Shown one piece after another: positions 25,649 to 61,670 of a stretch of 64,000 nt of DNA. The translations under genes and the position numbers were made by a program. The stretch comes from an uncultured Candidatus Saccharibacteria bacterium (lineage in GTDB: Bacteria > Patescibacteriota > Minisyncoccia > Phycocordibacterales > UBA2100). Every line of letters begins with the position of its first letter. Position 1 is the stretch's first letter. Location of the stretch: NCBI GenBank assembly GCA_964586255.1, contig CAZPGE010000002.1, positions 42,065 to 106,064 of the forward strand, given 5' to 3'. The notes under the pieces are model-generated. The model ran no database searches. It saw only the letters and a list, made by a program, of their open reading frames with translations, and was not told the DNA's origin.

Positions 25649-27295
25649 TTATGATTTCCGTTTTAGACAGTACATCTCATTAGCAACGGTTCGGGCGAAA
25701 AGATGTTTCGTAGTCTCATTGCACGCAATTTTACTCATCATACGCTCGCTTGCCTGGAAATGGCCGCGATGTGTTCCTCGTTCTCTATCCAATTCGTACA
25801 AGCGTCCGTCGTTGGATCCAATAAAAAGTGAGTCGCCAATTGCGATAGGGGAGCCAAACACGCGGCCGTTGGTCTCAAACGCCCAGCGACGTTTCTTGGT
25901 GTCGATGTCTATCGCATAGACGGATTTGTCGAGCGACGCGACATATACCGTATCCCCCTGGACAAGAGGAATCGAATAGATGGCGCCGCCGGTTTCGTAT
26001 GCAAATACGGGTTCGCCAGTATCAGCGGCGAGAGCGTACAACTTTCCGTCCATCGAAGCAACAAACACGAGTCTTCTCTTTGCATCATACGCGGGTGCGG
26101 TCTTTATATCTCCGTCAGTCTTGTATCGCCACATGAGCGCGCCCGTATTTGCTTCGTAGGCGTAGCAGATGCCATCGTTGCTCCCAATCACCACCATCCC
26201 TTCTTCTTTTATATAGAGAGGAGTCCCGTGTGTGAGTGAGGAGGTGATGTCTTGCCAGCGTTTTTCGCCTGTATGCATATCGAGCGCGACAATACCGCCG
26301 CGCTTACCGAATAGCCCAAACTCAAGTCCGATGTAGAGAAGCCCAAGATCCGGCGCAATAGAAGGAGACGAGCCAACCCAATCAGCATCGTCGTATCCCC
26401 ATTTCTTCACCCCCGTCTTTGTATCAAGTGCGTACACGACTCCATCGTACGCACCAAAATAGAGCACTCCCTTGTGGAGTGCAGGTGTAGAGAGAATCCC
26501 CTTACCTTCAGGGTGCTTGCCGACCGTGAATTCCCAGATGATTGCACCAGTCCTCTGGTCGAGCGCCCGCATAGTGCCATCGTCGCATCCGAGAAAGACG
26601 AGCGTATCATCGAGCACCGGCGCAGATTTCTGTACGACAAGGTGGAGGCTGGGGTGCGGCCCCGTATAGCGCCACACAGTCTCAAACTCAGAGTTCTTAT
26701 TCGGCTGCACTTTCTTCAGAAGAGGTATCCCAAAATCTTCGAGGGTAAAAAGATGATTCACCGCGATGCTTCTGTCCTCGAGTGATTTGTATGCATCGCG
26801 CGCCCTGAAGGCGAGCATGGCAAATACATCCGTGACTTTTCTCCCCGTGTCGGCGAGTACTGCGAGCTGTTTCTCAAATGTCGAACCGGTGTTGATAAGA
26901 TCGTCGACGAGAATGACGGGGTGCTCGTCGAGCGTGCCCTCAATCTGGCGCATGAGCCCCTGACGTTTGCGTGACTTTCTTATATAGAAACCATTCACCG
27001 GTGTGCCACGCTCTATGCCCTTCATCACGATGGCGGCTACTAATGCTATGGCGGCCGTTTCCATCGCACCGACCTGGAAAGGGTATTTCGGTGCGTATCG
27101 TTCCCAAAATATCTCGGCGTAGCGATTGAGCCAGTATGGCTGGAGCATGAGAGCGCGAAAATCAAAGAGCCACGACTCGCGCCTCCCCGTACTTTCCGAC
27201 GCGACGATGACCGCACCCGATGATCGTCGCGCAAGGGCGACAGACTCTATTGTTCGGTGTAGGTCGCTATATTTATTGTCCATGCGAATCGTCAT
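25649..27295 (-). CDS. Fusion protein: type I phosphoribosyltransferase domain + PQQ-like beta-propeller repeats
   Basis: PRPP-binding motif VILVDDLINTGSTF. At least six repeats of xDGxxYAxDxxTGxxxW type in the C-terminal 350 aa. Confidence 0.7.
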   Translation of the reverse strand: MTIRMDNKYSDLHRTIESVALARRSSGAVIVASESTGRRESWLFDFRALMLQPYWLNRYAEIFWERYAPKYPFQVGAMETAAIALVAAIVMKGIERGTPVNGFYIRKSRKRQGLMRQIEGTLDEHPVILVDDLINTGSTFEKQLAVLADTGRKVTDVFAMLAFRARDAYKSLEDRSIAVNHLFTLEDFGIPLLKKVQPNKNSEFETVWRYTGPHPSLHLVVQKSAPVLDDTLVFLGCDDGTMRALDQRTGAIIWEFTVGKHPEGKGILSTPALHKGVLYFGAYDGVVYALDTKTGVKKWGYDDADWVGSSPSIAPDLGLLYIGLEFGLFGKRGGIVALDMHTGEKRWQDITSSLTHGTPLYIKEEGMVVIGSNDGICYAYEANTGALMWRYKTDGDIKTAPAYDAKRRLVFVASMDGKLYALAADTGEPVFAYETGGAIYSIPLVQGDTVYVASLDKSVYAIDIDTKKRRWAFETNGRVFGSPIAIGDSLFIGSNDGRLYELDRERGTHRGHFQASERMMSKIACNETTKHLFARTVANEMYCLKRKS

Positions 27296-27304
27296 TCGAC
27301 TGAC

Positions 27305-28018
27305 CTATCCTTTACACACGGTAATCGCAAGCACCGTCTGTTCCTGCTCCTCGTCGAGGTCGAGGAGCTCGGAGATACGTTCGTCGTTGAATCCTGCGTA
27401 CGGTCTGACGTTAAGATCGAGTGCGCATCCAACAAGCAAGATATTCTCACTCATGTGTCCCGCCTCGAGGAGTCCGTGCGTGTATGAGATGTCTCCATAT
27501 TTTGCGGAGGAGCGAGCCCATACGCTCGTGAAGACGATAAGAGTCGAGAGCGGGAGCGGCTCAGGGTACTTTGCCAGACTCTTCATATCGAAATCTTGGG
27601 GCAGATTCCAGAGCTGTTCCAGTGAATGTTCAGTCGGATTGTAGTGAAATACTGCTGGGGCCTGTGACTCGAGCGCCGTTGAGATGACGTATGTCTCTAT
27701 TGGATAGAGCCCGCCTCCGGAGGGGTAGTTTCGATAGTGTGCTCCGGGTCGCTTCTGAAGGGCGAGACCGAGGAGGGTGCCACACTCCTGAAGTGTAAGG
27801 TCGATACTTGGATTACCACTCAAAGCCGAATGACGCTTCTTGATTGCATCGGGCAGGGTGATACTGAGACCTTCTGGCTGCGGGAGAGGCACCTTCTGCA
27901 TCCGCGAATACACCTTGTGTACTCCTCGAGGCACGTCCTCCGGGCGGTGCGTGGCGCCCCTCTTTGTAAGCAGAGCACGGCGCAGTTCGGTATGTAAATG
28001 CGATATAAATGATGTCAT
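27305..28018 (-). CDS. SagB-type dehydrogenase (nitroreductase superfamily; TOMM azoline oxidase-like)
   Basis: YPSGGGLYPIETYV matches the PSAGGLYP signature of McbC/SagB dehydrogenases. Start overlaps the YcaO stop (ATGA). Confidence 0.75.
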   Translation of the reverse strand: MTSFISHLHTELRRALLTKRGATHRPEDVPRGVHKVYSRMQKVPLPQPEGLSITLPDAIKKRHSALSGNPSIDLTLQECGTLLGLALQKRPGAHYRNYPSGGGLYPIETYVISTALESQAPAVFHYNPTEHSLEQLWNLPQDFDMKSLAKYPEPLPLSTLIVFTSVWARSSAKYGDISYTHGLLEAGHMSENILLVGCALDLNVRPYAGFNDERISELLDLDEEQEQTVLAITVCKG

Positions 28019-29508
28019 GAAAATGGATGGGGCCTATCAGCAAACGGCTTGCTCAAGGGAGTATATCCGAGTGCTTTAGGGATGTCGTGCCATCTCGTGC
28101 CGCCAAATTGTTGGACCCACTCGTTGAGGTACGTCGGCTGCAGCTTCGGCATGATGACCATCTCAATGTGCAGAGATGAGGGATTTTTTGCCGATGAGGT
28201 GAGAGGGACCGAGATGCATTCAAGATGTGAGTCTTTGCACCACTGCACCACTCTCTCATAGTGTTCCTCCACAGTATCGATGTCCCACGCTTTGTCACCA
28301 ATCTCGATTTCAGGACCGCGAATCATAAACTCAAGATGCTTCGCGTTTTCAGGTACGCCCCAATAGTACAGGCGCTCGCGGTGGCCGATTTTTTCCGAGG
28401 GGGTGCGCATATCCCAGACGTTTCCCGCGCCAGTCCACAGGCTGTGCGCGCGATATGCCCGGAGCGCCTCAGTCATGGCTTTCTCGATGGCGTAGGGAAG
28501 TGACTGATGTGCCTTGAGGCCGACCACAAAGCGTGGCGCATTGCCACCAATGTCTTCGATGACCACCGCCACGGCGTGTGTCGGCGCGTCAGTGGGAAGC
28601 TGCAGTACGTGCGTTTTGAATTGGTACCTTTCGCACTGTGCGATAGCCCTGGCAAGCGATGGGTATTTCGCGCAGAGAGGGTCGAGTGCAAGGCGGGGAA
28701 GCGTCAATTGGTTAAACCACATCATCATATAGGCATCTCGCTCGATGACTTCAAGCGCTCCTGCAAGTCGTGCGCCGTTCTGTGTTGGCCATGTGGCGAG
28801 TCCGTTCGTGTTTTGTTGTCGTATGATCGGCTCTTCCGTACCACCTGTCATAGCGCGAGGTCGAACACCGCTCACCGTTTGCGCCGGTACGTATATGCGC
28901 TCTCCACTCACGAGAGAAGTGCCCTGAATCCAGAGGTACTCAGCATCTGGGCGGAGTTGCCGCTGAGGATGGCGTGTCCGTTGCTCATCGGAAAATCCGA
29001 CGAAATCCTCCGGGGCCACACGCGGGCCGATTGCACTGATCGCTTCCGAGGTAGCTCTTTTGGGGCTCATGAAATAGTCGTCCTGCGTCATCCAGATGTA
29101 TCGCTCAAGGGCCTCTGCGAGCGCGGCGTAGAGGGCACTCTCGTCATCTTCCCACGAAGTTCCTCCTACGTTGTGACTTGTGGGGTCGTTGCAGATAGCG
29201 TACCAACCTTTGGTTCGCGGTAAATCCGGCCAGAGATTTTTCACTGGTCCGAATGATTGTATGACCCCGTGCTTTTTCAGTAGTGCAGCCAGTGTGAGCG
29301 GTTCGAGTATATCAAGACGAGAAAAGGGTATGCTCCGCAAGTCCTTCACGACTTTGACACCAAGGCTTTTTTCGAGATACTCCGAGAGAGCCCCGAGCGC
29401 TCTCGCTTTAATATCGGAGCTGGAGAGTGTCTCACGGAACGGCACGGCGTCAAAAATCATGCGCCAATCATAGCAGTACCCATACCTCCCAGAAAGCATT
29501 CGCTCCAT
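28015..29508 (-). CDS. YcaO domain protein, paralog 1 (start set at MERMLSG with GGAG RBS; the longer ORF to 29952 carries a Pro/Gln low-complexity antisense artefact)
   Basis: GGTSWEDDESALYAALAEALERYIW and GALEVIERDAYMMMW motifs typical of the YcaO ATP-binding region. 60% identity to the 33278 paralog. Confidence 0.75.
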   Translation of the reverse strand: MERMLSGRYGYCYDWRMIFDAVPFRETLSSSDIKARALGALSEYLEKSLGVKVVKDLRSIPFSRLDILEPLTLAALLKKHGVIQSFGPVKNLWPDLPRTKGWYAICNDPTSHNVGGTSWEDDESALYAALAEALERYIWMTQDDYFMSPKRATSEAISAIGPRVAPEDFVGFSDEQRTRHPQRQLRPDAEYLWIQGTSLVSGERIYVPAQTVSGVRPRAMTGGTEEPIIRQQNTNGLATWPTQNGARLAGALEVIERDAYMMMWFNQLTLPRLALDPLCAKYPSLARAIAQCERYQFKTHVLQLPTDAPTHAVAVVIEDIGGNAPRFVVGLKAHQSLPYAIEKAMTEALRAYRAHSLWTGAGNVWDMRTPSEKIGHRERLYYWGVPENAKHLEFMIRGPEIEIGDKAWDIDTVEEHYERVVQWCKDSHLECISVPLTSSAKNPSSLHIEMVIMPKLQPTYLNEWVQQFGGTRWHDIPKALGYTPLSKPFADRPHPFS

Positions 29509-29524
29509 ACTCCACTCCAGAGCA

Positions 29525-29920
29525 TTGAACATCGTCGGCATTGTTGCGATAATGACTGGTATGGCGATGTTTGAAAAGATGAGTCGTGGCGTGCAAGGCA
29601 TTGTTGGGAAAATCGGGAGTGTAGCGCTCATCATGTTCGGATTTTTGCTGGTGTTTTCTTCCACGCATTCGAAAGCGGGGACTGCCCAGTCGCAGGATGG
29701 AATATTTGGCGCCGACGTCGCCCACGCAGATGCTCCGTATGACCCCAACAGCTGCACTACGGGCGACTGCGTCGCGTGTGCAGCCTGCACGAGTGACGGA
29801 GGGGCGGGTTGCGGCACCGGCGGTTGCACGGGCGGCGCCGATGGAAGTGGTGCTGGAGGAAGCTGTGCCGGCGATTGCGACAGCGGCGACGGCGGCTGCG
29901 GCTGCGGTGCCAGCGGCTGA
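29525..29920 (+). CDS. Candidate RiPP precursor-like peptide 1: hydrophobic N-terminal segment + Cys/Gly/Ser/Thr-rich C-terminus (alternative start 29579)
   Basis: ...DVAHADAPYDPNSCTTGDCVACAACTSDGGAGCGTGGCTGGADGSGAGGSCAGDCDSGDGGCGCGASG*. Divergent from YcaO-1. Confidence 0.5.
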   Translation: MNIVGIVAIMTGMAMFEKMSRGVQGIVGKIGSVALIMFGFLLVFSSTHSKAGTAQSQDGIFGADVAHADAPYDPNSCTTGDCVACAACTSDGGAGCGTGGCTGGADGSGAGGSCAGDCDSGDGGCGCGASG

Positions 29921-29943
29921 TTGCTGCGCATGGCAATGAATAC

Positions 29944-31044
29944 ATGTCTCATTCACTAAAACTCGTTGGTTGGCTCATTGCTTTGCTTGTCATTCCCGCG
30001 GGGTTGTATGCTCTGTATACATATATTTTCTATGACCCGAATCCTAGTCAGTTGACGCGGGATTTGGAGCAGCTCGTCGATGCAAAAGTACGTGGCGATG
30101 ATGCTGCAGCTCTCGCGCAGTACCAGCAGATTCTGAGCGACCCCACATCGACGGCAGAAGAGCGGGCCATAGCCGATGTCTATATAGCCGGTACCGAATT
30201 CAGTCTTTCCGGAGACATGAGCTCGCGACTCAGCGATGTGCGGAAAATGAAGAGGATTGTCGCTGACAGCACACTCTCCGCGACAGTGCGTGCCGCAGCG
30301 ATGAGCGTTCTGGGTAATGCATATGCGGTCTCGGGGGGAGATCCCGCGGTGTTCGCCGAGATCTACAAGGGCGCACCATTTGACTCCTACCTTGTCCCGG
30401 ATAGACCTCAGCTCTCTGCCATCAATCTACTGAAAGAGTCATACGCCATGCAGCCATCGTCGTTTGCGGCGAGCAAAGTGGCCGAGCTTGCTTCAGGTCG
30501 GTATTTTGCGAATCCGCAGCAGGACGCAACTACGACAGCGGCCTACGTCGCACTGGCGGAAGAGTACTTGAACAAGGCGGACATCGCGGCTCTTAGTGAG
30601 GCGCAGCAAAGACCTGCCACATACGCCAGTAGCGATCGATATATTTTGTATAGACTATCGAGAGCGATAACCGTCGGTCGTCTGGCAATACAAAAAGGAG
30701 AGCCATACAAAAATTCCTACCGTAAGGAATTCAATAACTTCATTGCACTTGCGCAATCAATACAGAGCACTCTCGCACACAATGTGGTGTTCAATGCGCG
30801 CTTCCAATACGCGAGGATTCTCGAGGCAGATGGGGATACGACAGCCGAGAAAACACAGCTCGACATACTTGCGCGAGAGTTGGATAGACTCTCCAATCCA
30901 AACACCATTCCGTTCGTGCTCTCCTTGAGAAATGCACGCGCACAGCCGACCGAAGCGATGTGGCTCTCAGTGCAAAGAATGTCGTCGACTTCGCCGGAGT
31001 TTAAGACCGCAATCGACAAGCTCACGGCCGCTTCATCGAGCTAA
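29944..31044 (+). CDS. TM-anchored alpha-helical protein, paralog A (366 aa)
   Basis: N-terminal TM LVGWLIALLVIPAGLYALYTYIF. Homologous to 35098..36231 (KGAPFDSYLV vs KDPPYSTFFV). Confidence 0.55.
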   Translation: MSHSLKLVGWLIALLVIPAGLYALYTYIFYDPNPSQLTRDLEQLVDAKVRGDDAAALAQYQQILSDPTSTAEERAIADVYIAGTEFSLSGDMSSRLSDVRKMKRIVADSTLSATVRAAAMSVLGNAYAVSGGDPAVFAEIYKGAPFDSYLVPDRPQLSAINLLKESYAMQPSSFAASKVAELASGRYFANPQQDATTTAAYVALAEEYLNKADIAALSEAQQRPATYASSDRYILYRLSRAITVGRLAIQKGEPYKNSYRKEFNNFIALAQSIQSTLAHNVVFNARFQYARILEADGDTTAEKTQLDILARELDRLSNPNTIPFVLSLRNARAQPTEAMWLSVQRMSSTSPEFKTAIDKLTAASSS

Positions 31045-31131: not shown

Positions 31132-31728
31132 TTATTTCGGAACCTTGTCGTTCGGGACAATGTCTCCGATCCTGGTCGCGAAGTCGACCCGCATCTGCGC
31201 GATCTGCAGCCGGGTAAACATATCCTTCTTGAACATCGGCCACCACTTCTCGGCCGAATGCAGAACCAGCATCGGCCCCAGATCACCTTGGATGACGCGA
31301 GCGCTCCTCGGATCGCCGGGAGCCTGGAGCCGACCCCACGATGCGCCGAGGGCGCATCTTCCGCCGGCGAACGGCAGATAGGAGTTTTCGCCATCCTTGT
31401 CGGTCTCGGCGAGAAACTTCTTCAGGTTTGCCGCTGACTTGAAACACCAGGTGACGCCCTTCAGCCTCGTCTGGTATTTGTCGCAGTCGGCGACGTCGGG
31501 CTGCCCGCCCTTCTCGGCGTTCAGCCAGGCCGATACGACGTCGTAATCGACCCGCGCACCCTTCTCGTGTTTTTTCCACGAGAATGCCACGCCGTCGTTG
31601 ACGACGATTTCGGTCAGAGGCTTCTTGTCCTCCTTCGCGACTGCGGGCTTCGCCACCTCCTGCGCGAGGCCAGCGCGGGAAAAACATGCCGCGAGGATGC
31701 CCGCGGCAACCAACAAAAGCTTTCTCAT
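31132..31728 (-). CDS. Putative lipoprotein (lipobox LAAC)
   Basis: MRKLLLVAAGILAACFS. No domain recognised. Confidence 0.5.
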   Translation of the reverse strand: MRKLLLVAAGILAACFSRAGLAQEVAKPAVAKEDKKPLTEIVVNDGVAFSWKKHEKGARVDYDVVSAWLNAEKGGQPDVADCDKYQTRLKGVTWCFKSAANLKKFLAETDKDGENSYLPFAGGRCALGASWGRLQAPGDPRSARVIQGDLGPMLVLHSAEKWWPMFKKDMFTRLQIAQMRVDFATRIGDIVPNDKVPK

Positions 31729-31843: not shown

Positions 31844-31889
31844 GGCGGTCACTGGAGACTCGAGAGTCAGTGCCGCCTTTTCTTTTTTT
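31844..31889 (+). terminator. Strong rho-independent terminator GGCGGTCACTGGAGACTCGAGAGTCAGTGCCGCC+TTTTCTTTTTTT with no confident upstream CDS
   Basis: Long hairpin plus 12-nt T-run. Possible 3' end of a small RNA. Confidence 0.5.
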
Positions 31890-32429
31890 GCGCCTGAGCG
31901 CAAAGGAGCATGGTCATTGCAGCGACCCGCTACCTGTAAAAAACATACTATGCTTCGCATGAAGGAGCAAGGAAGTCGGCGGGCGGTCACCCGCCCGCCG
32001 CCCCGGATGCTGCTTACGAGCTACTACACCCTAGTCGTACACGTGCCTACCGTGTGGTCACAAACACTGACCGGTGGTGGGGCACCTGTTGCACTTTGGT
32101 GCTTCCGACTTGCTGGCCGAAGCCACTTTCGTCGGATGGCTTGCACGAGTGCCTGCGAGGGCGCTCGTTGATGCAAACACGACTGCAATCGTGCCTGCAA
32201 GCAGCATCATCACTGCGTTTCGCATATGAGTCTCCGATATGCGATGAAGACGGAGGTTTACACGGGAATGTCCGCCAGTCTCCTAGGAGCTCGTCTACGC
32301 AATACTTGAAGAACGATCCCGCGCAGACCTTAGCGCGGTGGAGTGAGTGAGTCAATTTTTGATACTGCTGGTACGATCGCGTGGAGGAATTCCTTGATGT
32401 ATCCCAATAAATATGTACTAGTTCCGGTA

Positions 32430-32481
32430 GTCGGGATGAAATCCAGATGCCTCTGGGTACCCGTCGGCATGGGAGAGAAAC
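32430..32481 (+). promoter_or_regulatory. Conserved 5' leader (GTCGGGATGAAAyC-hairpin-GGTACCCGyC) upstream of small secreted Cys-rich peptide gene, copy 1
   Basis: Aligns with 32888..32928. The internal hairpins covary (CCAGAtgccTCTGG vs CCGGGagCCCGG). Confidence 0.4.
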
Positions 32482-32730
32482 ATGCACAAGAATATCGTGA
32501 TTGCGGCACTCGTAGTGTTCGGAGTCGCCGCCTCGTCGCCCTCGCAGGCGGGGAAGGCATCGGCTCGCACCTGCAGTGGGCAGCACAGCATCTGCCTCAA
32601 CTTCTGCAGCACATCGGGGCGGGGCGGGGACTGTACCAGTGATTGCGCCGGTCGTCAGGCCACGTGCCTGCAGACTGGAACCTACATGTGGATCAACAGT
32701 CCCACGATTAGGGGACTGGTTCGCAAGTAA
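32482..32730 (+). CDS. Small secreted Cys-rich peptide (82 aa, 6 Cys)
   Basis: Signal peptide MHKNIVIAALVVFGVAASSPSQA. Mature part GKASARTCSGQHSICLNFCSTSGRGGDCTSDCAGRQATCLQTG... Confidence 0.45.
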   Translation: MHKNIVIAALVVFGVAASSPSQAGKASARTCSGQHSICLNFCSTSGRGGDCTSDCAGRQATCLQTGTYMWINSPTIRGLVRK

Positions 32731-32887
32731 GGCGACTTGTGCGCCAAAGGGTACGAGACGTGCCAGGCAAACGCCCGCGATGCAGTAGCGTCCGGGCGTT
32801 TTTTTGCGCTACCCCTTTTTGGTTTCAGCGAGACGGTTGCTGAGAGCACCTTGACTCATGGCAATAAAAGTGTAGTAATACAGTCAG

Positions 32888-32928
32888 TCGGGATGAAACC
32901 GGGAGCCCGGGTACCCGCCTTGGAGGCA
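32888..32928 (+). promoter_or_regulatory. Conserved 5' leader, copy 2
   Basis: gtcgggatgaaaccgggagcccgggtacccgccttggaggcaatg. Confidence 0.4.
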
Positions 32929-33174
32929 ATGATGAAAAAGATCCTTCTCGGTACCGTCGTGGGTACCGCCCTGCTTGCGATGTTCGCGCTTACGCCGGCG
33001 TCGGCGCAGGGAACGAACTATGCCGGTCAGTGCTCGAGTTACTCGGCACCGGCGGACTGTCTGAAATGCTGCGGAACATTTCACAAGAGCTCGTACCTGA
33101 GCGCGGAATGCACGAACTCGTGCAAGATCAGCAACTTCCGCGATTCGAGGAACATGTCGCCGAAGCGCAAGTAG
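32929..33174 (+). CDS. Small secreted Cys-rich peptide (81 aa, 6 Cys)
   Basis: GGAGG RBS. Signal peptide MMKKILLGTVVGTALLAMFALTPASA. Mature part ...GQCSSYSAPADCLKCCGTFHKSSYLSAECTNSCKIS... Confidence 0.45.
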   Translation: MMKKILLGTVVGTALLAMFALTPASAQGTNYAGQCSSYSAPADCLKCCGTFHKSSYLSAECTNSCKISNFRDSRNMSPKRK

Positions 33175-33277
33175 TCGCGCGTATCAAGGCGCGCGTCGGA
33201 TGCGTCGGAGAGAAGTCTCCGACGCATTTTTTATTTTCGACGCTTTTTCGCGTAGATGCTTGAGAGGAGGAGAGGTA

Positions 33278-34783
33278 TTAGGCGAATGGGTGTGGCTCGT
33301 CCGTAAACGGCTTCTCACGAGGGGTGATGTCGAAGTGCTGCGGTACGCTTTTCCAGCGCTCTCCGCCCAGTTGCTGGAATTTCTCACTGAGATGCATCGG
33401 TTGAAGCTCCGGTATGACCACCATCTCTATCGACCATGGGGTGGGATTCTTTTTGGAGGTGCCAAGAGAGACCGACACACATTCGTATCCCGAATCTCGA
33501 CACCAGCTCACGATGCGTTGGAGGTGCTCATCCGGCGTGTCGTTTTCCCATTCGGCAAGCGGCACCTCGATTTCTTTTCCCTGCAGAAGCACTTCAAGCT
33601 TTTTTGCATTCTCCGGTGCGCCCCAATACAGAATACGGTCGTAGTGTCCGACCTCGCTTTTCGAGACAGAGGGGTCCCATCGTTTTCCTGCGAGGTCCTG
33701 TCGTCGACACGAAAAGCGCGCGCGGAGTGCTTCTGTCGTTGCTCTCTCTACAGCATGTGTCAATGATCGATGCGCTTTCATACCGAAAGAAAATCGTGGC
33801 ACGTGTCCACTTTCGTCTTCGAGGATGACACACACGGCGTGTGCGGGTGCATCGGTCAGGAGCTGCAGAGCATGCACCTTGAGGCGATAGCGCGCACATG
33901 TACCCACGAATTCCGAGAGCGTCGTGCTGCGTGCGCAAAGACCCTCAAGTGATATCCGGGGCAAGGCGAGTTGATTGAGCCACATAATCATGTACGCATC
34001 GCGCTCGACTACCTCGAGAGCACCGGCAAGTCGTGCGCCGCTTTGCGTGGGCCATGTGGCGAGCCCGGTGGTATTGCGATGCCGAATAAGTGGTTCTTCA
34101 GAATTCCCCAGATCTTGAACGGCGGTTATCGTCTGAGCGGGCACATACGTCGGGTTTCCCGAGACAAGCGAGATTCCTCGCGTCCAGAGAAACGTACTCG
34201 AGGAGTCGAGTCTCCATCCCGGATTCTTTTCGCGTTGCTCCGGGGAGAATGCGACGAAGCGCTCGGGCGCAATCGATGCGCCGTATTTTTGTATAACGTT
34301 ATGCGTCGCCTGCACTGGCGCTACAAAATAGTCTCGCTCCTCAAGCCAAATATACCGCTCAAGCGCTTCTGCAAGAGCGGCTGTAAGGGCGTTCGCATCG
34401 CTCTTCCACGCACTTCCACCGACAGGATTGTTTCTCTTGTCGCCACACACCGCATTCCACTGCGCAATTCGGGGCTCATCAGCAAGATGCGGAGCTCGTA
34501 CAATGGACGCTATCACCCCGCTCTGTTTTAGTTTCTTTGCCAACTCAAATGAATCCAAAAGCTCCGGACGATTAAATGGAATCTGATTCGCATCGAATGC
34601 GATGGTGACGCGCAATTTTCTTTCCAATATATTGAGAATCGAATAGATCGCTCTTTCTTGGAATCCTCCGCGGATTGGGGAGTAGAAATGAGCGAAGGGA
34701 ATGCCTTCAAATATCATGTGGGGATGATAGCAGTCATGCTCAAGGCGAGGAAGCTTCAAGATGCGCGGACTATTATTATCCAC
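33278..34783 (-). CDS. YcaO domain protein, paralog 2 (501 aa)
   Basis: GGSAWKSDANALTAALAEALERYIW and GALEVVERDAYMIMW motifs. Shares the distinctive C-terminal region with YcaO-1 (...YWGAPENAKKLE...PHPFA). Confidence 0.75.
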   Translation of the reverse strand: MDNNSPRILKLPRLEHDCYHPHMIFEGIPFAHFYSPIRGGFQERAIYSILNILERKLRVTIAFDANQIPFNRPELLDSFELAKKLKQSGVIASIVRAPHLADEPRIAQWNAVCGDKRNNPVGGSAWKSDANALTAALAEALERYIWLEERDYFVAPVQATHNVIQKYGASIAPERFVAFSPEQREKNPGWRLDSSSTFLWTRGISLVSGNPTYVPAQTITAVQDLGNSEEPLIRHRNTTGLATWPTQSGARLAGALEVVERDAYMIMWLNQLALPRISLEGLCARSTTLSEFVGTCARYRLKVHALQLLTDAPAHAVCVILEDESGHVPRFSFGMKAHRSLTHAVERATTEALRARFSCRRQDLAGKRWDPSVSKSEVGHYDRILYWGAPENAKKLEVLLQGKEIEVPLAEWENDTPDEHLQRIVSWCRDSGYECVSVSLGTSKKNPTPWSIEMVVIPELQPMHLSEKFQQLGGERWKSVPQHFDITPREKPFTDEPHPFA

Positions 34784-34830
34784 ACATTTCGTTTTTATAT
34801 GACACCCGCAGGGTGAATAATGGGGGAATC

Positions 34831-35091
34831 ATGGTCGCCGTACATATTGCGTATTCGCGAACGCGCGCCATATTTCGCGGAATATCGACCGTATTCCTCA
34901 TGGTATCGGGCTTTTTCTTGATTTTCTTTAGCGCACCTCGCGTCCCGGGCATGTCGGATATTTCTGATGTCGGAGTAGCACATGCCGATGCTCCTGTGGA
35001 TCCTAACGCCTGTACCGACGGCACCGTCCCTGTCGATTATTTTGTCTATGTCGACCCTGGCTGTGGCTGTGGCTGTGGCTGTGGCATCTAA
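34831..35091 (+). CDS. Candidate RiPP precursor-like peptide 2 (86 aa from MVAVHIAY; a possible internal start MSDISDVG would give a 46-aa peptide)
   Basis: GGGGG RBS. ...FLMVSGFFLIFFSAPRVPGMSDISDVGVAHADAPVDPNACTDGTVPVDYFVYVDPGCGCGCGCGI*. Divergent from YcaO-2, 48 bp between starts. Confidence 0.5.
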   Translation: MVAVHIAYSRTRAIFRGISTVFLMVSGFFLIFFSAPRVPGMSDISDVGVAHADAPVDPNACTDGTVPVDYFVYVDPGCGCGCGCGI

Positions 35092-35097
35092 CATAGT

Positions 35098-36231
35098 ATG
35101 GAGCCAGAAAACAACGGACCGCAGAGCCACTTTGCTGGCATAGTGCTTGTCGTACTCGGCGTCCTGGTCGCAGCTCTCATTGGAGGATTCTTCTATATCT
35201 ACGACCGAGTTAAAAACCAGGAGAACGTGACCGACTATACCGTGACAAACACACCCTTCACCGTACTAACTCGAGATAATCAATACTTCGCACAGGCCAG
35301 CGCGGCGGCTCGCGCCGGGAATTATGAGCAGGCAATACAGCTGTACGAGCAAGCGCTCACGCTCGCAGAGGATTCCGCTCAAGCAAGCCAGATACAATTT
35401 ACAATCGCATTGCTTGAAGATCGATACGGGAGCGCGCCTCGAGCAATCGACCTTTACAAGCAGATTGTCATCAGCTCTACCAACGACAACCATCCGCTTC
35501 TGAAAGCGAATGCCATAGCGAATATGGTCGAGCTCTACTATAGAAATGGTGACTCAGCGGTGACGGAACAGATATTTAAAGACCCTCCATATTCGACCTT
35601 TTTTGTTTCCAATGATTTGAGTCTTTCATACCGACGCCTCGCAGAATATGCGGTATCTTTTTACCCGCTCGCTCTTCCTGAGCTGCGCATCGCGAGCTGG
35701 TATGCATATCGCTTGACGGATGTAAGTCGAATCGCAACAGGAGAGGCCACAAGTACCTATCCGGGCATAATCCAGAATGCAATTCTGCGTGCGGACCAAG
35801 ACATAGACCGCATGCGGGCGAACACCGACGACGCGCAGCTCATCCCGAACATCCTCACGCGCAAAAGTGCACTCTATCTCAATATGCATGACGCGGGTCT
35901 CGCGACCGCGCAGGAAACCGAAGAAGTCAACAAAGCTGCGCTCACGATTTACTCCGCGATTGGTGCGCCAGATGCTATCGACGGCTTTGCGAGATACTAC
36001 TACGCGGTGTTTCTCGCAGAACAGGGGTCCTCACGCGCGACCGATTTGCAGGCGGTTGTCTCACCGTTCTATGACAATCCTGGCTACAAAGGTTCGCTCG
36101 CCCTCGCTTTCTTTGCGAGCGAGAAAACCAACGCTCTCAGCCAGAAGTCACGTTTGGTGAAAATCGCTAATGCCGATCCCAAATTCAAGGCGCTCCTGAT
36201 ATCGCTCGGTTGGAATGAAAAAGATCTCTAG
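35098..36231 (+). CDS. TM-anchored alpha-helical/TPR-like protein, paralog B (377 aa)
   Basis: N-terminal TM HFAGIVLVVLGVLVAALIGGFFYIY. Homologous to 29944..31044. Confidence 0.55.
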   Translation: MEPENNGPQSHFAGIVLVVLGVLVAALIGGFFYIYDRVKNQENVTDYTVTNTPFTVLTRDNQYFAQASAAARAGNYEQAIQLYEQALTLAEDSAQASQIQFTIALLEDRYGSAPRAIDLYKQIVISSTNDNHPLLKANAIANMVELYYRNGDSAVTEQIFKDPPYSTFFVSNDLSLSYRRLAEYAVSFYPLALPELRIASWYAYRLTDVSRIATGEATSTYPGIIQNAILRADQDIDRMRANTDDAQLIPNILTRKSALYLNMHDAGLATAQETEEVNKAALTIYSAIGAPDAIDGFARYYYAVFLAEQGSSRATDLQAVVSPFYDNPGYKGSLALAFFASEKTNALSQKSRLVKIANADPKFKALLISLGWNEKDL

Positions 36232-36928
36232 TGTGTCTGATGCCTTTTGGCATCGTTCGGCTACATTTTACCTGTGGCTCTGTCTCGGTGTCTTGTTGGT
36301 GATAGGGCTATCGGTGATTGCACTTGAGAAACACGTCGCGTCGAAAGGGAGCGCCAAGACAGATAGTGAGTCGCTCATCGTGCGCCGCATTACAGAAGAC
36401 GACCATGTCTTGGGCGCAGTCTCAGCTCCAGTACAGGTGATCGTGTACGCGGATTTATCATGCCCGTACTGCAAAAGCTTTTTTCAATCTACGCTCCCAA
36501 AGCTCCGCGCAGCATACGGGGACAAGATTGTTGTGGCGTATAGGCATTTGCCGCTTGCGCAGCATCCCGCGAGCCGTCTTGAAGCGAACGCAGCCGAATG
36601 CGTGGCGCAAGCGGCAGGCAACGATGCATTCTGGCGATTTGTGCAAAAGGTGTATGAACACCCTAAATTTAGGGACGGACTTGCTCTGTCAGATCTCGTC
36701 TCTCTTGCGCAGGGCGATGGCATATCACGGGTACGCATGTCTGCGTGCATAGAGTCTGAAGAATATGGTGACCGAGTACGTACCGATGCGCTTGAAGCAT
36801 CGGTCGCGGGTATTTCCGTGACTCCCGGCGTCGTGCTCAAGTCATCTACACGCGCTCTGATTGTGCAGGGCGATTACCACCGTGAGATTGACGCAGGAAT
36901 TGAATACCTGCTTCAGAGCGGCATTTGA
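36215..36928 (+). CDS. Membrane-anchored DsbA-like thiol:disulfide oxidoreductase (thioredoxin fold)
   Basis: CPYC active-site motif (..VYADLSCPYCKSFF..). N-terminal TM. Confidence 0.65.
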   Translation: MKKISSVSDAFWHRSATFYLWLCLGVLLVIGLSVIALEKHVASKGSAKTDSESLIVRRITEDDHVLGAVSAPVQVIVYADLSCPYCKSFFQSTLPKLRAAYGDKIVVAYRHLPLAQHPASRLEANAAECVAQAAGNDAFWRFVQKVYEHPKFRDGLALSDLVSLAQGDGISRVRMSACIESEEYGDRVRTDALEASVAGISVTPGVVLKSSTRALIVQGDYHREIDAGIEYLLQSGI

Positions 36929-39964: not shown

Positions 39965-40588
39965 ATGAAATTCAGCAATAAGTTTATCTTGGGCACCAAG
40001 GGTCGCATGACCCAGGTCTTCGACGAGAAAGGCGTCGTCTCCGCAGCCACACTTATCTCTGCTGCGCCGATGACGGTGACCCAGGTAAAGACTAAGGAGA
40101 AGGATGGGTACGAAGCTGTGCAGATCGGTATGGGTACCCGTGCTCCAAAGAATATCAATGCACCTCAAAAGGGTCACCTCAAGGACCTCCCGAACGCTCG
40201 CACTATGCGCGAATTCCCGCTTACCGGTGAAGCAAAGCGCGGAGACACCATGGATATTTCGGTGTTCGTCCCAGGCGATATCGTCACCGTCTCGGCCATT
40301 TCGAAAGGTAAGGGCTTCCAGGGTGTCGTAAAGCGCCATGGCTTTGCTGGCGGGCCTCGTTCGCACGGTCAGAAGAACAAAGAGCGCGCTCCAGGCTCCA
40401 TCGGTGGAGGTGGTCGTGCGGGTGGTCGCGTGGTAAAGGGTATGCGCATGGCCGGCCGTATGGGCGGTGAGCGCATCACGGTGGAGAACCTCCGCGTCTT
40501 GCAGGTTGATGTCGAGAACAACGCGATGCTTATCTCCGGTGCCATCCCTGGTCGCCCTGGTACACTCGTCGAAATCCGAGCAAAATAA
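39965..40588 (+). CDS. rplC: 50S ribosomal protein L3
   Basis: Family-typical sequence. Position at the head of the S10-type operon. Confidence 0.95.
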   Translation: MKFSNKFILGTKGRMTQVFDEKGVVSAATLISAAPMTVTQVKTKEKDGYEAVQIGMGTRAPKNINAPQKGHLKDLPNARTMREFPLTGEAKRGDTMDISVFVPGDIVTVSAISKGKGFQGVVKRHGFAGGPRSHGQKNKERAPGSIGGGGRAGGRVVKGMRMAGRMGGERITVENLRVLQVDVENNAMLISGAIPGRPGTLVEIRAK

Positions 40589-61548: not shown

Positions 61549-61670
61549 ATCGGGCAAGACTTTTTGGGTCGCTGTCTGGCGCTGCTGCGCCAGCGCTCCC
61601 TCTCGGCCCGTCGGCCTGCGCAACACTCCAAAAGAGAATTAAAAAATCGGGATGAGAGTGATAGGAAAGG

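What the first reader, a model, noticed from the sequence alone, without database searches (positions are those of the whole stretch)
32430..33174. Two small secreted Cys-rich peptide genes preceded by a conserved leader with a covarying hairpin
Genes 32482..32730 and 32929..33174 each encode a signal peptide plus an approximately 55-aa mature peptide with 6 Cys.

Both are preceded by GTCGGGATGAAAyC, a short hairpin, GGTACCCGyC, and then RBS and ATG. The hairpin stems differ in sequence but keep their pairing (CCAGA/TCTGG vs CCGGG/CCCGG). That argues for a conserved RNA structure such as a riboregulator, a processing site or a transcription-factor site with a dyad.

These peptides could be substrates or partners of the neighbouring YcaO/PP-loop enzymes, or bacteriocin-like products.
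Basis: seen in the sequence. Interest (0 to 1): 0.55.

Follow-up and report, generated by a model that had tools for sequence, protein, structure and literature searches.

The report
Conserved mRNA leader before secreted peptides
Two small genes for exported, cysteine-rich peptides in an uncultured ultra-small (CPR/Patescibacteria) bacterium each begin with the same about 37-base folded RNA leader, which stays almost unchanged across related species while the peptides diverge fast, so it is probably a previously undescribed control element whose function is still untested.

Summary
Genes 32482..32730 and 32932(32929)..33174 are separate single-gene units. Each has a sigma-70-like promoter, a conserved leader, a Shine-Dalgarno (SD) site, a Sec signal peptide, a cationic mature peptide with 6 Cys, and its own terminator.

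I found the leader in five more organisms, which gives 5 distinct variants. All are Paceibacteria-like CPR bacteria, and in all the leader precedes the same peptide family.

The proposed fold is 5'-A-G-N-CGGG-wUGAA-[A-P2-U]-A-CCCG-y-C.
- P2 is paired in 100% of cells, and 4 of its 7 pairs show changes on both sides.
- P1 and the internal loop never vary, while the promoter spacer, the P2 loop and the peptides vary freely.
- The conserved block starts at the predicted transcription start.

The leader matches no Rfam family. It is not a coding N-terminal extension: one variant has UUG plus an in-frame stop, and pep1 is out of frame.

My best reading is a lineage-specific structured 5' leader, probably recognised by a trans-acting factor, that controls translation or mRNA stability. 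The function is inferred, not shown.

The peptides are unlikely to be YcaO substrates. They carry Sec signals, and better precursor candidates lie beside each YcaO gene.

The parts
32394..32428 (+). Promoter of pep1. It has a -35 TTGATG and a -10 region TGTACTAGT, in a fixed 35-nt block that ends just before the conserved A.
   Evidence: The same 35-nt geometry occurs in all 7 units and is aligned. The strict consensus scan did not flag it. The transcription start is predicted, not mapped.
32429..32465 (+). Leader copy 1 (37 nt). P1 pairs 32430 with 32465 and 32432-32435 with 32460-32463. The internal loop is AUGAA (32436-32440) opposite A32459. P2 pairs 32441-32447 with 32452-32458, with loop UGCC.
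   Evidence: Minimum-free-energy fold. Covariance-model hit of 55.3 bits. Pair counts.
32466..32481 (+). Linker with the SD site GGGAGAG (32471-32477). A predicted GCAUG/CAUGC hairpin spans the SD site and the start codon.
32482..32730 (+). pep1, 82 aa. The signal peptide is residues 1-23 (ends ...SQA). The mature peptide is 59 aa, net charge +5, with Cys spacing 6-3-8-3-6. It is predicted to form a helical hairpin.
   Evidence: A partial orthologue lies at L020 3-125.
32771..32806 (+). Intrinsic terminator of pep1 (ACGCCCG...CGGGCGT followed by a T run).
   Evidence: Sequence read. Partly flagged.
32851..32885 (+). Promoter of pep2. It has a -35 TTGACT and a -10 region TGTAGTAAT.
32886..32919 (+). 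Leader copy 2 (34 nt). It has the same P1 and internal loop as copy 1. P2 is A-CCGG/CCGG-(G)-U with loop GAGC.
   Evidence: The leader is identical in L051.
32920..32931 (+). Linker with the SD site GGAGG (32922-32926). The preceding GCCU pairs with AGGC, giving a weak hairpin between an anti-SD sequence and the SD site.
32932..33174 (+). pep2, 80 aa (81 aa if translation starts at 32929). The signal peptide ends ...ASA. The mature peptide is 55 aa, net charge +5, with Cys spacing 8-2-0-12-3.
   Evidence: Five orthologues keep all 6 Cys.
33198..33239 (+). Intrinsic terminator of pep2 (14-pair stem followed by a T run).

Best explanation
**What it is.** Each peptide gene is a separate single-gene transcription unit. 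Its mRNA starts, by prediction, at the A of AGUCGGG. Its first 34-37 nt fold into a two-helix element.
- P1 is invariant: G2-C37 plus CGGG/CCCG, with an unpaired 3/36 position.
- The internal loop is invariant and asymmetric: wUGAA opposite a single A.
- P2 is distal, closed by an A-U pair, 5-7 bp long with a 4-nt loop. Its sequence is free to change as long as pairing is kept.

**What follows it.**
- In pep2-type leaders, CCU(C) comes directly after P1 and pairs with the Shine-Dalgarno (G)AGG. C36 and C37 are shared between P1 and this weak hairpin.
- In pep1, a different small hairpin covers the SD site and the AUG.

**How I think it works.** The leader is a lineage-specific cis-regulatory RNA that co-regulates this family of Sec-exported peptides. 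The peptides are cationic, have 6 Cys, and are predicted to form helical hairpins with probable disulfides.
- The invariant P1 and internal loop are the recognition site for a trans-acting factor, more likely a protein than a small ligand.
- Binding would shift the balance between the full P1 and the hairpin that occludes the SD site, and so set translation.
- The 5'-terminal helix would also protect the short mRNA from decay that starts at the 5' end.

**Shown versus inferred.**
- Shown: nucleotide-level conservation, P2 covariation, and the exclusive link to this peptide family.
- Inferred: the transcription start, P1 formation, SD occlusion, the existence of a trans-acting factor, and the direction of regulation.
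For: **The leader recurs.** Besides the two window copies, it occurs in 5 further organisms, always in front of this peptide family. They are L020 and L045 (one organism), L046, L042, L051 and L052.

**Fixed geometry.** The -35 box is 35 nt from the conserved A in all 7 units. Conservation switches on sharply at that A, while the 6 nt before it vary.

**P2 covaries.**
- 100% of cells form standard pairs.
- 4 of 7 pairs are changed on both sides, and 2 more change on one side through wobble pairs.
- Sliding the 3' partners drops pairing to 24-54%.
- RNAalifold on an independent MAFFT alignment gives the same P1, P2 and anti-SD architecture, as do single-sequence folds.

**P1 and the internal loop are constrained at the nucleotide level.**
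- Outside P2, the only variable leader positions are the three unpaired ones: 3, 8 and 36.
- The P1 and loop part is 86-100% identical in every pair, while mature peptides are 20-91% identical.
- L020 and L046 have identical leaders but mature peptides only 35% identical.
- The window and L051 have flanks 84-87% identical, leaders 100% identical, and mature-peptide DNA 62% identical.

**It is not coding.**
- L052 has UUG in place of AUG and an in-frame UGA.
- The leader AUG of pep1 is out of frame with the gene.
- Every unit has GGAGG or GGGAG 5-6 nt before the downstream AUG.

**No other copies.** The covariance model finds no other copy in the window or in 90 kb of related loci.
Against: - No transcript data exist, so the transcription start is only predicted.
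- P1 never varies, so nothing shows that it actually pairs.
- There are only 5 distinct sequences from one narrow clade. The structural alignment of the 34-nt variants was made by hand, which biases counts toward the structure.
- In the shuffle control, 10 of 500 shuffles reached the observed values.
- Folding energies are no better than shuffled sequence.
- The SD-occluding hairpin has only 3-4 bp and is not the same in pep1.
- No candidate binding protein or ligand is identified.
- Length differences in pep2-type leaders are multiples of 3, and 4 of 5 pep2-type leaders are in frame with the gene. This leaves a small residual case for translation of the leader.
Confidence: 0.5

Rival explanations
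1. The leader is a generic 5'-terminal stabiliser hairpin, of the ompA, aprE or ermC kind. It only shields the mRNA 5' end from RNases. No specific factor recognises it, and it has no regulatory switch.
For: The helix would begin 1 nt from the predicted 5' end. The units are short single-gene transcripts with strong terminators, which suits stable mRNAs. Only the pairing of P2 is constrained, not its sequence.
Against: A pure stabiliser should let P1 and the internal loop drift and covary as P2 does. Instead, 18 positions are invariant while 11 of the 12 P2 stem positions outside the closing A-U pair, and the whole loop, change. The hairpins are not unusually stable.
Confidence: 0.2
2. The leader is a small-molecule riboswitch. 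P1, the internal loop and P2 form a minimal aptamer, and the adjacent hairpin between the anti-SD sequence and the SD site is its expression platform.
For: The conservation pattern looks like an aptamer: an invariant junction and adjacent pairs, with a covarying distal stem and a variable loop. The SD pairing shares C36 and C37 with P1.
Against: The element is very small, with a single 5+1-nt internal loop. It matches no Rfam family, even at E up to 10. It precedes only hypervariable secreted peptides, not metabolic or transport genes, so no ligand suggests itself. The linker in pep1 lacks the same platform.
Confidence: 0.12
3. The element works at the DNA level. The inverted CGGGWT ... TACCCG half-sites, or the GGGTACCC palindrome, would be the operator of a transcription factor sitting on +2 to +37.
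For: The conserved parts form an inverted repeat. GGGTACCC is a perfect palindrome in 4 of 5 variants. The site overlaps the predicted start, a classic repressor position.
Against: The spacing between half-sites differs by 3 bp, with elements of 31 and 34 nt. The intervening DNA changes only in ways that keep pairing, including G-U wobbles, which have no meaning in duplex DNA. The palindrome is broken in L042 (GGATACCC) by a change that restores an RNA pair, U-G to U-A.
Confidence: 0.1
4. The conserved block is coding. The AUG in GGGAUGAAA would be the true start, and the leader would encode an N-terminal extension (MKPGLWVPAS...) or a regulatory upstream ORF.
For: Gene callers start there in P0002, P0123, P0125 and the L046 gene. 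The frame is open and in phase with the gene in 4 of 5 pep2-type variants, and the indels are multiples of 3.
Against: L052 has UUG and an in-frame UGA after 6 codons. The leader AUG of pep1 is out of frame. No SD site precedes it, whereas a consensus SD site sits 5 nt before the downstream AUG in every unit. L020 and L046 show no synonymous change across the leader although their mature peptides are 35% identical. The change at the would-be Trp codon (W to R, UGG to CGG) is exactly the one that restores a base pair.
Confidence: 0.03

Closest known systems
5'-terminal mRNA stabiliser stem-loops (E. coli ompA hp1, B. subtilis aprE and ermC leaders); compared from general knowledge
   Same: The helix is predicted to start within 1-2 nt of the transcript 5' end, on a short, well-terminated mRNA. 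The distal stem is constrained for pairing only.
   Different: Here 18 nt of P1 and the internal loop are sequence-invariant across species. The element is tied to one peptide family and abuts an SD-pairing segment. Its stabilising activity is untested.
Protein-bound 5'-UTR operators such as the iron-responsive element or ribosomal-protein leaders; compared from general knowledge
   Same: It is a small hairpin near the 5' end. It has an invariant bulge or internal loop with flanking pairs, a freely covarying distal stem, and a position that could block translation initiation.
   Different: There is no sequence or Rfam relationship. No binding protein is known. The organism is a CPR bacterium, and the cargo is secreted peptides.
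Hammerhead ribozyme core (3' half)
   Same: The string GAA-A[stem]U-A followed by a helix strand matches G12-A13-A14, the 15.1-16.1 A-U pair that closes stem III, and H17 (read from the sequence).
   Different: The CUGANGA box and stem II are absent, with only 'wU' in their place. There is no Rfam hammerhead hit. It is not a ribozyme of this family.
Twin-CX3C helical-hairpin peptides (Cs-alpha/alpha kappa-KTx scorpion toxins, plant alpha-hairpinins, small Tim proteins)
   Same: CX3C...CX3C motifs sit on two predicted antiparallel helices (pep1 helices 28-45 and 48-65; pep2 helices 41-51 and 59-74). The peptides are small, cationic and secreted.
   Different: There is no significant homology (best PDB profile hit is kappa-KTx 2.9 at E = 0.12; Foldseek E above 3). 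These peptides have a third Cys pair and are bacterial.
Sec-dependent class II bacteriocins (for example enterocin P); compared from general knowledge
   Same: Both have a Sec signal peptide, a small cationic mature peptide containing Cys, and fast divergence between close relatives.
   Different: I identified no adjacent immunity or transporter gene and no homology. Activity is untested.

Membership tests
Any Rfam 15 family (riboswitches, RNA thermometers, ribozymes, leaders) | Covariance-model score at or above the family's gathering threshold. | tested here: not met
   The whole window gave no hit at gathering thresholds. At E up to 10 on 32300-33300, only noise appeared, and none of it lay on the leader.
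Hammerhead ribozyme | CUGANGA box and stem II between stem I and GAAA. | tested here: not met
   Only 2 nt (A/U then U) lie between CGGG and GAAA in all 5 variants.
Loop E / sarcin-ricin (bulged-G) motif | Conserved GUA opposite GAA, with an invariant bulged G. | tested here: not met
   The 3' strand reads GGUA, GAUA or AGUA. These changes covary as Watson-Crick or wobble partners of columns 14 and 15.
Structured cis-regulatory 5' leader (generic kind) | Position between the promoter and the SD site of the regulated gene, conserved across species. | tested here: met
   All 7 units in 6 organisms share the same geometry.
Structured cis-regulatory 5' leader (generic kind) | Base pairing supported by compensatory changes. 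| tested here: met
   This holds for P2: 4 of 7 pairs changed on both sides, 100% paired. P1 is invariant, so it gives no information either way.
Structured cis-regulatory 5' leader (generic kind) | A demonstrated effect on expression. | not testable with these tools
   This needs reporter assays, structure probing or transcriptomics.
5'-terminal stabiliser stem-loop | The helix begins within a few nt of the mapped 5' end. | tested here: inconclusive
   The start is only predicted, from the -10 position and the sharp onset of conservation.
RiPP/TOMM precursor of the neighbouring YcaO | A cytoplasmic precursor with a leader peptide rather than a Sec signal, and a Cys/Ser/Thr-rich core, conserved next to the YcaO gene. 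| tested here: not met
   pep1 and pep2 carry Sec signals with AXA-type sites. A different conserved ORF family with a Cys/Gly-rich C-terminus flanks every YcaO gene. More distant relatives that keep the YcaO module lack these peptides.
Sec-dependent class II bacteriocin | Sec signal plus a small cationic mature peptide. | tested here: met
   Net charge is +4 to +6, pI is about 9, and the mature peptides are 54-69 aa.
Sec-dependent class II bacteriocin | An adjacent immunity gene, and antimicrobial activity. | tested here: inconclusive
   I recognised no immunity-like gene among the neighbours. Activity cannot be tested here.
Twin-CX3C helical-hairpin peptides | Two CX3C motifs on antiparallel helices. 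| tested here: met
   Cys spacing is 6-3-8-3-6 and 8-2-0-(9/12)-3. Both peptides are predicted as helix-turn-helix, with pLDDT 71 and 59.5. This is a structural class only, with no homology.

The most novel reading that the evidence does not exclude
The leader is a factor-sensing riboregulator specific to a Paceibacteria (CPR) clade. It binds a protein or small ligand and switches on a set of hypervariable, secreted, disulfide-stapled effector or antimicrobial peptides. The invariant promoter-leader block, together with the conserved terminator, also acts as a homology handle that lets peptide 'cassettes' be duplicated, deleted and swapped between strains. L051 suggests this, because its junction lies inside the repeat, and so do the discordant leader and peptide similarities.
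Probability: 0.25. Interest if true: 0.6.

Novelty: new member of a known kind. Interest (0 to 1): 0.4.

Why it matters
I found no described regulatory RNA matching this element in Rfam or in the papers searched, and CPR/Patescibacteria are uncultured, largely episymbiotic bacteria with tiny genomes. A leader that is strictly conserved in front of fast-evolving exported peptides marks those peptides as a co-regulated set. They are probably used outside the cell, in competition or in host contact. It also gives a compact 37-nt RNA that can be tested in vitro.

The finding also corrects an annotation error. Gene callers start these genes at an AUG inside the leader, or miss them altogether.

The family is small and confined to a narrow clade, and its function is unproven, so the general impact is moderate.

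Tried and rejected
- **Rfam.** Gathering thresholds on the whole window and E up to 10 on the region gave nothing on the leader.
- **Exact-motif scans.**
  - The scan of 185,579 GTDB species genomes gave 19 hits, about what 20 specified bases should give by chance. All lie in unrelated, mostly coding contexts.
  - The JGI metagenome scan gave 17 hits, also unrelated.
  - The viral contig scan gave none.
  - These negative results are weak. The JGI contig L045 and the NCBI metagenome-assembled genome (MAG) contig L046 both carry the exact motif, and neither scan returned them.
- **Peptide searches.** Word-indexed searches with pep1 and pep2 found only pep1 itself and one pep2 homologue. A full HMMER profile search of 1.84 billion representatives found 3 true relatives and 2 spurious repeat proteins.
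- **Rejected RNA motifs.** I rejected loop E, the K-turn and the hammerhead core on sequence and covariation grounds. I also rejected a CsrA site, because the GGA lies inside P1 rather than in a loop.
- **Pseudoknot.** Pairing of the P2 loop with downstream sequence fits pep1 (UGCC with GGCA) and L020, but not L046, L042 or copy 2.
- **N-terminal extension or upstream ORF.** Rejected because of L052 and the pep1 frame.
- **Protein family and fold searches.** Pfam and NCBIfam gave no significant hit for the peptides. Foldseek against the PDB for the pep1 model gave nothing below E = 3.
- **Literature.** Searches on CPR cysteine-rich secreted peptides, on YcaO in Patescibacteria, and on the motif string itself gave nothing relevant.
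- **Weak covariance-model hit at 61645.** This is an unrelated terminator region.

Full report
**1. The observation**

Region 32394-33239 holds two back-to-back units on the + strand. Each unit consists of:
- a promoter-like block, CTTGA(c/t)-N14-TGTAsTAnT;
- the string AGTCGGGATGAAA, then a short hairpin, then GGGTACCCGyC;
- a Shine-Dalgarno (SD) site and an ATG;
- an ORF of about 80 aa and its own intrinsic terminator (32771-32806 and 33198-33239).

The exact 12-mer occurs only at 32430 and 32887 in the 64 kb window. A pairwise alignment shows about 72 nt of conserved sequence upstream of each gene, while the coding DNA is essentially unalignable. The two proteins are barely similar (BLASTP E = 0.04).

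Both proteins have a Sec-type signal peptide, ending SQA before G and ASA before Q. Each mature part is cationic (net +5, pI about 9) and has six Cys.

For gene 2, the ATG at 32932 is the likelier start. It gives the same 5-nt spacing from GGAGG to ATG as every orthologue.

**2. Finding relatives**

Direct motif scans failed.
- GTDB species genomes gave 19 hits, which is chance level.
- JGI metagenomes gave 17 unrelated hits.
- Viral contigs gave none.
- Later results show these collections miss known positives (L045 and L046), so the negatives carry little weight.

Protein-guided retrieval worked.
- pep2 has a 71% identical homologue on L020. That contig also holds the 3' end of a pep1 orthologue.
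- Homologues of the neighbouring YcaO gene place the organism in CPR/Patescibacteria. Source names include Minisyncoccota, Parcubacteria, Kaiserbacteria and Paceibacterota.
- Their contigs gave three more loci with the leader: L042, L045 (the same organism as L020) and L046.
- A full HMMER search of 1.84 billion representatives found only three other pep2-type clusters. Their contigs gave L051 and L052.
- More distant relatives (YcaO 55-67% identical) keep the YcaO module. At the equivalent position they carry unrelated small secreted genes with unrelated 5' UTRs.

**3. Anatomy of the leader**

In all 7 units, the -35 box lies exactly 35 nt upstream of the conserved A. The -10 region (TATAAT in L042, TACAAT in L052, (TG)TAsTAAT elsewhere) ends 6-7 nt before that A. 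The six nt just before the A differ in every variant. The conserved block therefore begins at the predicted transcription start. This start is inferred, not mapped.

There are five distinct leader sequences. They fit one structure, `.(.((((.....(((((((....))))))).)))).)`.
- P1 is G2-C37 plus CGGG/CCCG.
- The internal loop is (A/U)UGAA opposite a single A.
- P2 is closed by an A-U pair and carries a tetraloop.
- The 34-nt variants lack one P2 pair and have a bulged G where the 37-nt variants pair it with an inserted U.

Several independent approaches support this fold.
- Single-sequence minimum-free-energy folds give this structure.
- RNAalifold on an independent MAFFT alignment gives the same P1 and P2, plus a third short helix between CCU and the SD site.
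- On a structural alignment (hand-made for the short variants), all 56 cells form standard pairs. Four of 7 P2 pairs change on both sides: U-A/C-G, C-G/U-A, A-U/G-C and A-U/G-C. Two more change through wobble pairs.
- With the 3' partners slid by 1-3 columns, pairing drops to 24-54% and at most one pair is compensated. Ten of 500 shuffles reach the observed values.
- All four loop nucleotides vary.

In contrast, P1 and the internal loop are invariant. The only variable positions outside P2 are 3, 8 and 36, which are the unpaired ones.

A covariance model built from three variants recovers the other variants at E around 1e-6. It finds nothing else in the window or in about 90 kb of related loci.

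Thermodynamic z-scores are unremarkable.

**4. Selection acts on nucleotides, not on a protein**

| Comparison | Leader identity | Mature peptide identity |
|---|---|---|
| L020 vs L046 | 100% | 35% (aa) |
| Window pep2 vs L051 | 100% | 62% (DNA), 42% (aa) |
| L046 vs L052 | 81%, with P2 rewritten but still fully paired | 91% (aa) |

For the window and L051, the flanking intergenic and YcaO DNA is 84-87% identical.

Gene callers often start these genes at the AUG inside GGGAUGAAA, which creates 'MKPGLWVPAS...' extensions. That reading fails for four reasons.
- L052 has UUG and an in-frame UGA.
- The leader AUG of pep1 is out of frame with the gene.
- No SD site precedes it.
- The would-be Trp-to-Arg change (UGG to CGG) is exactly the base that compensates the A-to-G change on the other arm of P2.

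A small residual point in favour of translation remains. The indels among pep2-type leaders are multiples of three.

**5. Mechanism**

Three facts are established.
- The leader is under strong nucleotide-level constraint.
- P2 is constrained for pairing only.
- In the sequence examined, the element occurs only in front of this peptide family. It precedes both window paralogues, although the peptides themselves have diverged beyond recognition.

The rest is inference. The pattern of an invariant internal loop and adjacent helix, with a freely covarying distal stem and a variable loop, is what a sequence-specific binding site looks like. A generic stabiliser hairpin would not show it.

Directly 3' of P1, CCU(C) pairs with the SD (G)AGG in pep2-type leaders and shares C36 and C37 with P1. 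In pep1, a GCAUG/CAUGC hairpin spans the SD site and the AUG.

My preferred model has a trans-acting factor bind P1 and the internal loop and so set SD accessibility. The 5'-terminal helix would additionally protect the mRNA.

| Explanation | Confidence |
|---|---|
| Preferred model (factor-bound 5' leader) | 0.5 |
| Generic 5' stabiliser | 0.2 |
| Small-molecule riboswitch | 0.12 |
| DNA operator | 0.1 |
| Coding extension or upstream ORF | 0.03 |

The DNA operator is disfavoured because the half-site spacing differs by 3 bp. G-U wobble compensation is also meaningless in duplex DNA.

**6. The peptides and the YcaO neighbourhood**

- The pep2 family keeps the framework C-x8-C-x2-CC-x(9/12)-C-x3-C. 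pep1 has the symmetric C-x6-C-x3-C-x8-C-x3-C-x6-C.
- AlphaFold predicts helix-turn-helix hairpins: pep1 with pLDDT 71 and helices 28-45 and 48-65; pep2 with pLDDT 59.5. They look like twin-CX3C hairpins stapled by disulfides.
- A DsbA-like gene lies at 36215..36928.
- No homology to known families was found.
- The peptides are unlikely to be YcaO substrates. They have Sec signals. Every YcaO gene here and in relatives has a divergently oriented ORF with a conserved 'YSRxR', a transmembrane helix, '(V/I)AHADAP' and a Cys/Gly/Ser-rich variable C-terminus. In the window these are 29525..29920 and 34675..35091. These are the more plausible TOMM-type precursors.
- Hypervariability against conserved flanks fits an extracellular arms-race role, either antimicrobial or host-interaction. 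That role is speculation.

**7. Verdict**

The RNA-structure interpretation is supported by cross-species covariation and by sharp nucleotide-level conservation. The element is a previously undescribed 5' leader motif confined to one narrow clade. It is a new member of a known kind (structured cis-regulatory leaders), and its function is unproven. Interest is moderate.

Noticed in passing
window 29525..29920 (+) and 34675..35091 (+); also L042, L043, L047, L048, L049 upstream of YcaO: A conserved family of ORFs lies divergently beside every YcaO gene. Each has an N-terminal 'YSRxR', a transmembrane helix, '(V/I)AHADAP' and a variable Cys/Gly/Ser/Asp-rich C-terminus (for example ...VDPGCGCGCGCGI). 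These are likely the real YcaO/dehydrogenase (TOMM-like) precursors. In several assemblies, gene callers call the antisense ORF instead.
   Followed up: partly
L043 and L049 (relatives); window 25649..29952 and 33278..34783, L3 at 39965..40588: In relatives, the module of YcaO, nitroreductase-like dehydrogenase and PRTase/PQQ-propeller sits between the ribosomal protein genes S10 and L3. The window carries two YcaO paralogues, the second without its own dehydrogenase.
   Followed up: partly
L051 4-367 = window 32101-32463; L051 289-1106 = window 32842-33662: A close relative (84-87% nt identity in the flanks) has one peptide gene where the window has two. The junction falls inside the repeated promoter-leader block. 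This implies deletion or duplication by recombination between the two leader repeats.
   Followed up: yes
window 32058..32225 (-): A third small ORF (55 aa) has a signal-peptide-like N-terminus and a short mature part with 3 Cys (CNRCPTTGQC). It is divergent from pep1, is partly called as a gene in L051 (3..128), and lacks the leader motif.
   Followed up: partly
P0002, P0123, P0125; L046 2285..2617: Database proteins of this family carry spurious N-terminal extensions (MKPGLWVPAS..., and even promoter read-through in P0123) because gene callers start at the AUG inside the leader. In the window organism's own assemblies, pep2 was not called at all, and an antisense 48-aa ORF was called instead.
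   Followed up: yes
L020, L046, L052, L051 vs window 32886-33174: Leader variant and peptide similarity are discordant. L046 and L052 have mature peptides 91% identical, but P2 is rewritten. L020 and L046 have identical leaders but peptides only 35% identical. This suggests shuffling of leader and peptide modules, or very uneven rates.
   Followed up: partly
L045 (JGI Ga0376277_0277542) and L046 (NCBI JBTSDM010000071.1): Both contigs contain the exact search pattern. Neither was returned by the metagenome-contig scan or the genome-contig scan. Negative results from those scans therefore have limited power.
   Followed up: yes
window 31132..31728 (-): A 198-aa secreted protein upstream of the peptide genes gives a weak, sub-threshold hit to a YHS-domain (metal-binding) family (E = 1e-7, 32 bits against a cutoff of 70). 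This is a possible hint of metal handling near the Cys-rich peptides.
   Followed up: no
window 31845-31890 and 31978-32000; 32319-32338 (conserved in L051 224-243): Three strong GC-rich hairpins lie in the 750-bp 'empty' intergenic region between the 198-aa gene and pep1. One has T runs on both sides (a bidirectional terminator?). Their functions were not examined.
   Followed up: no
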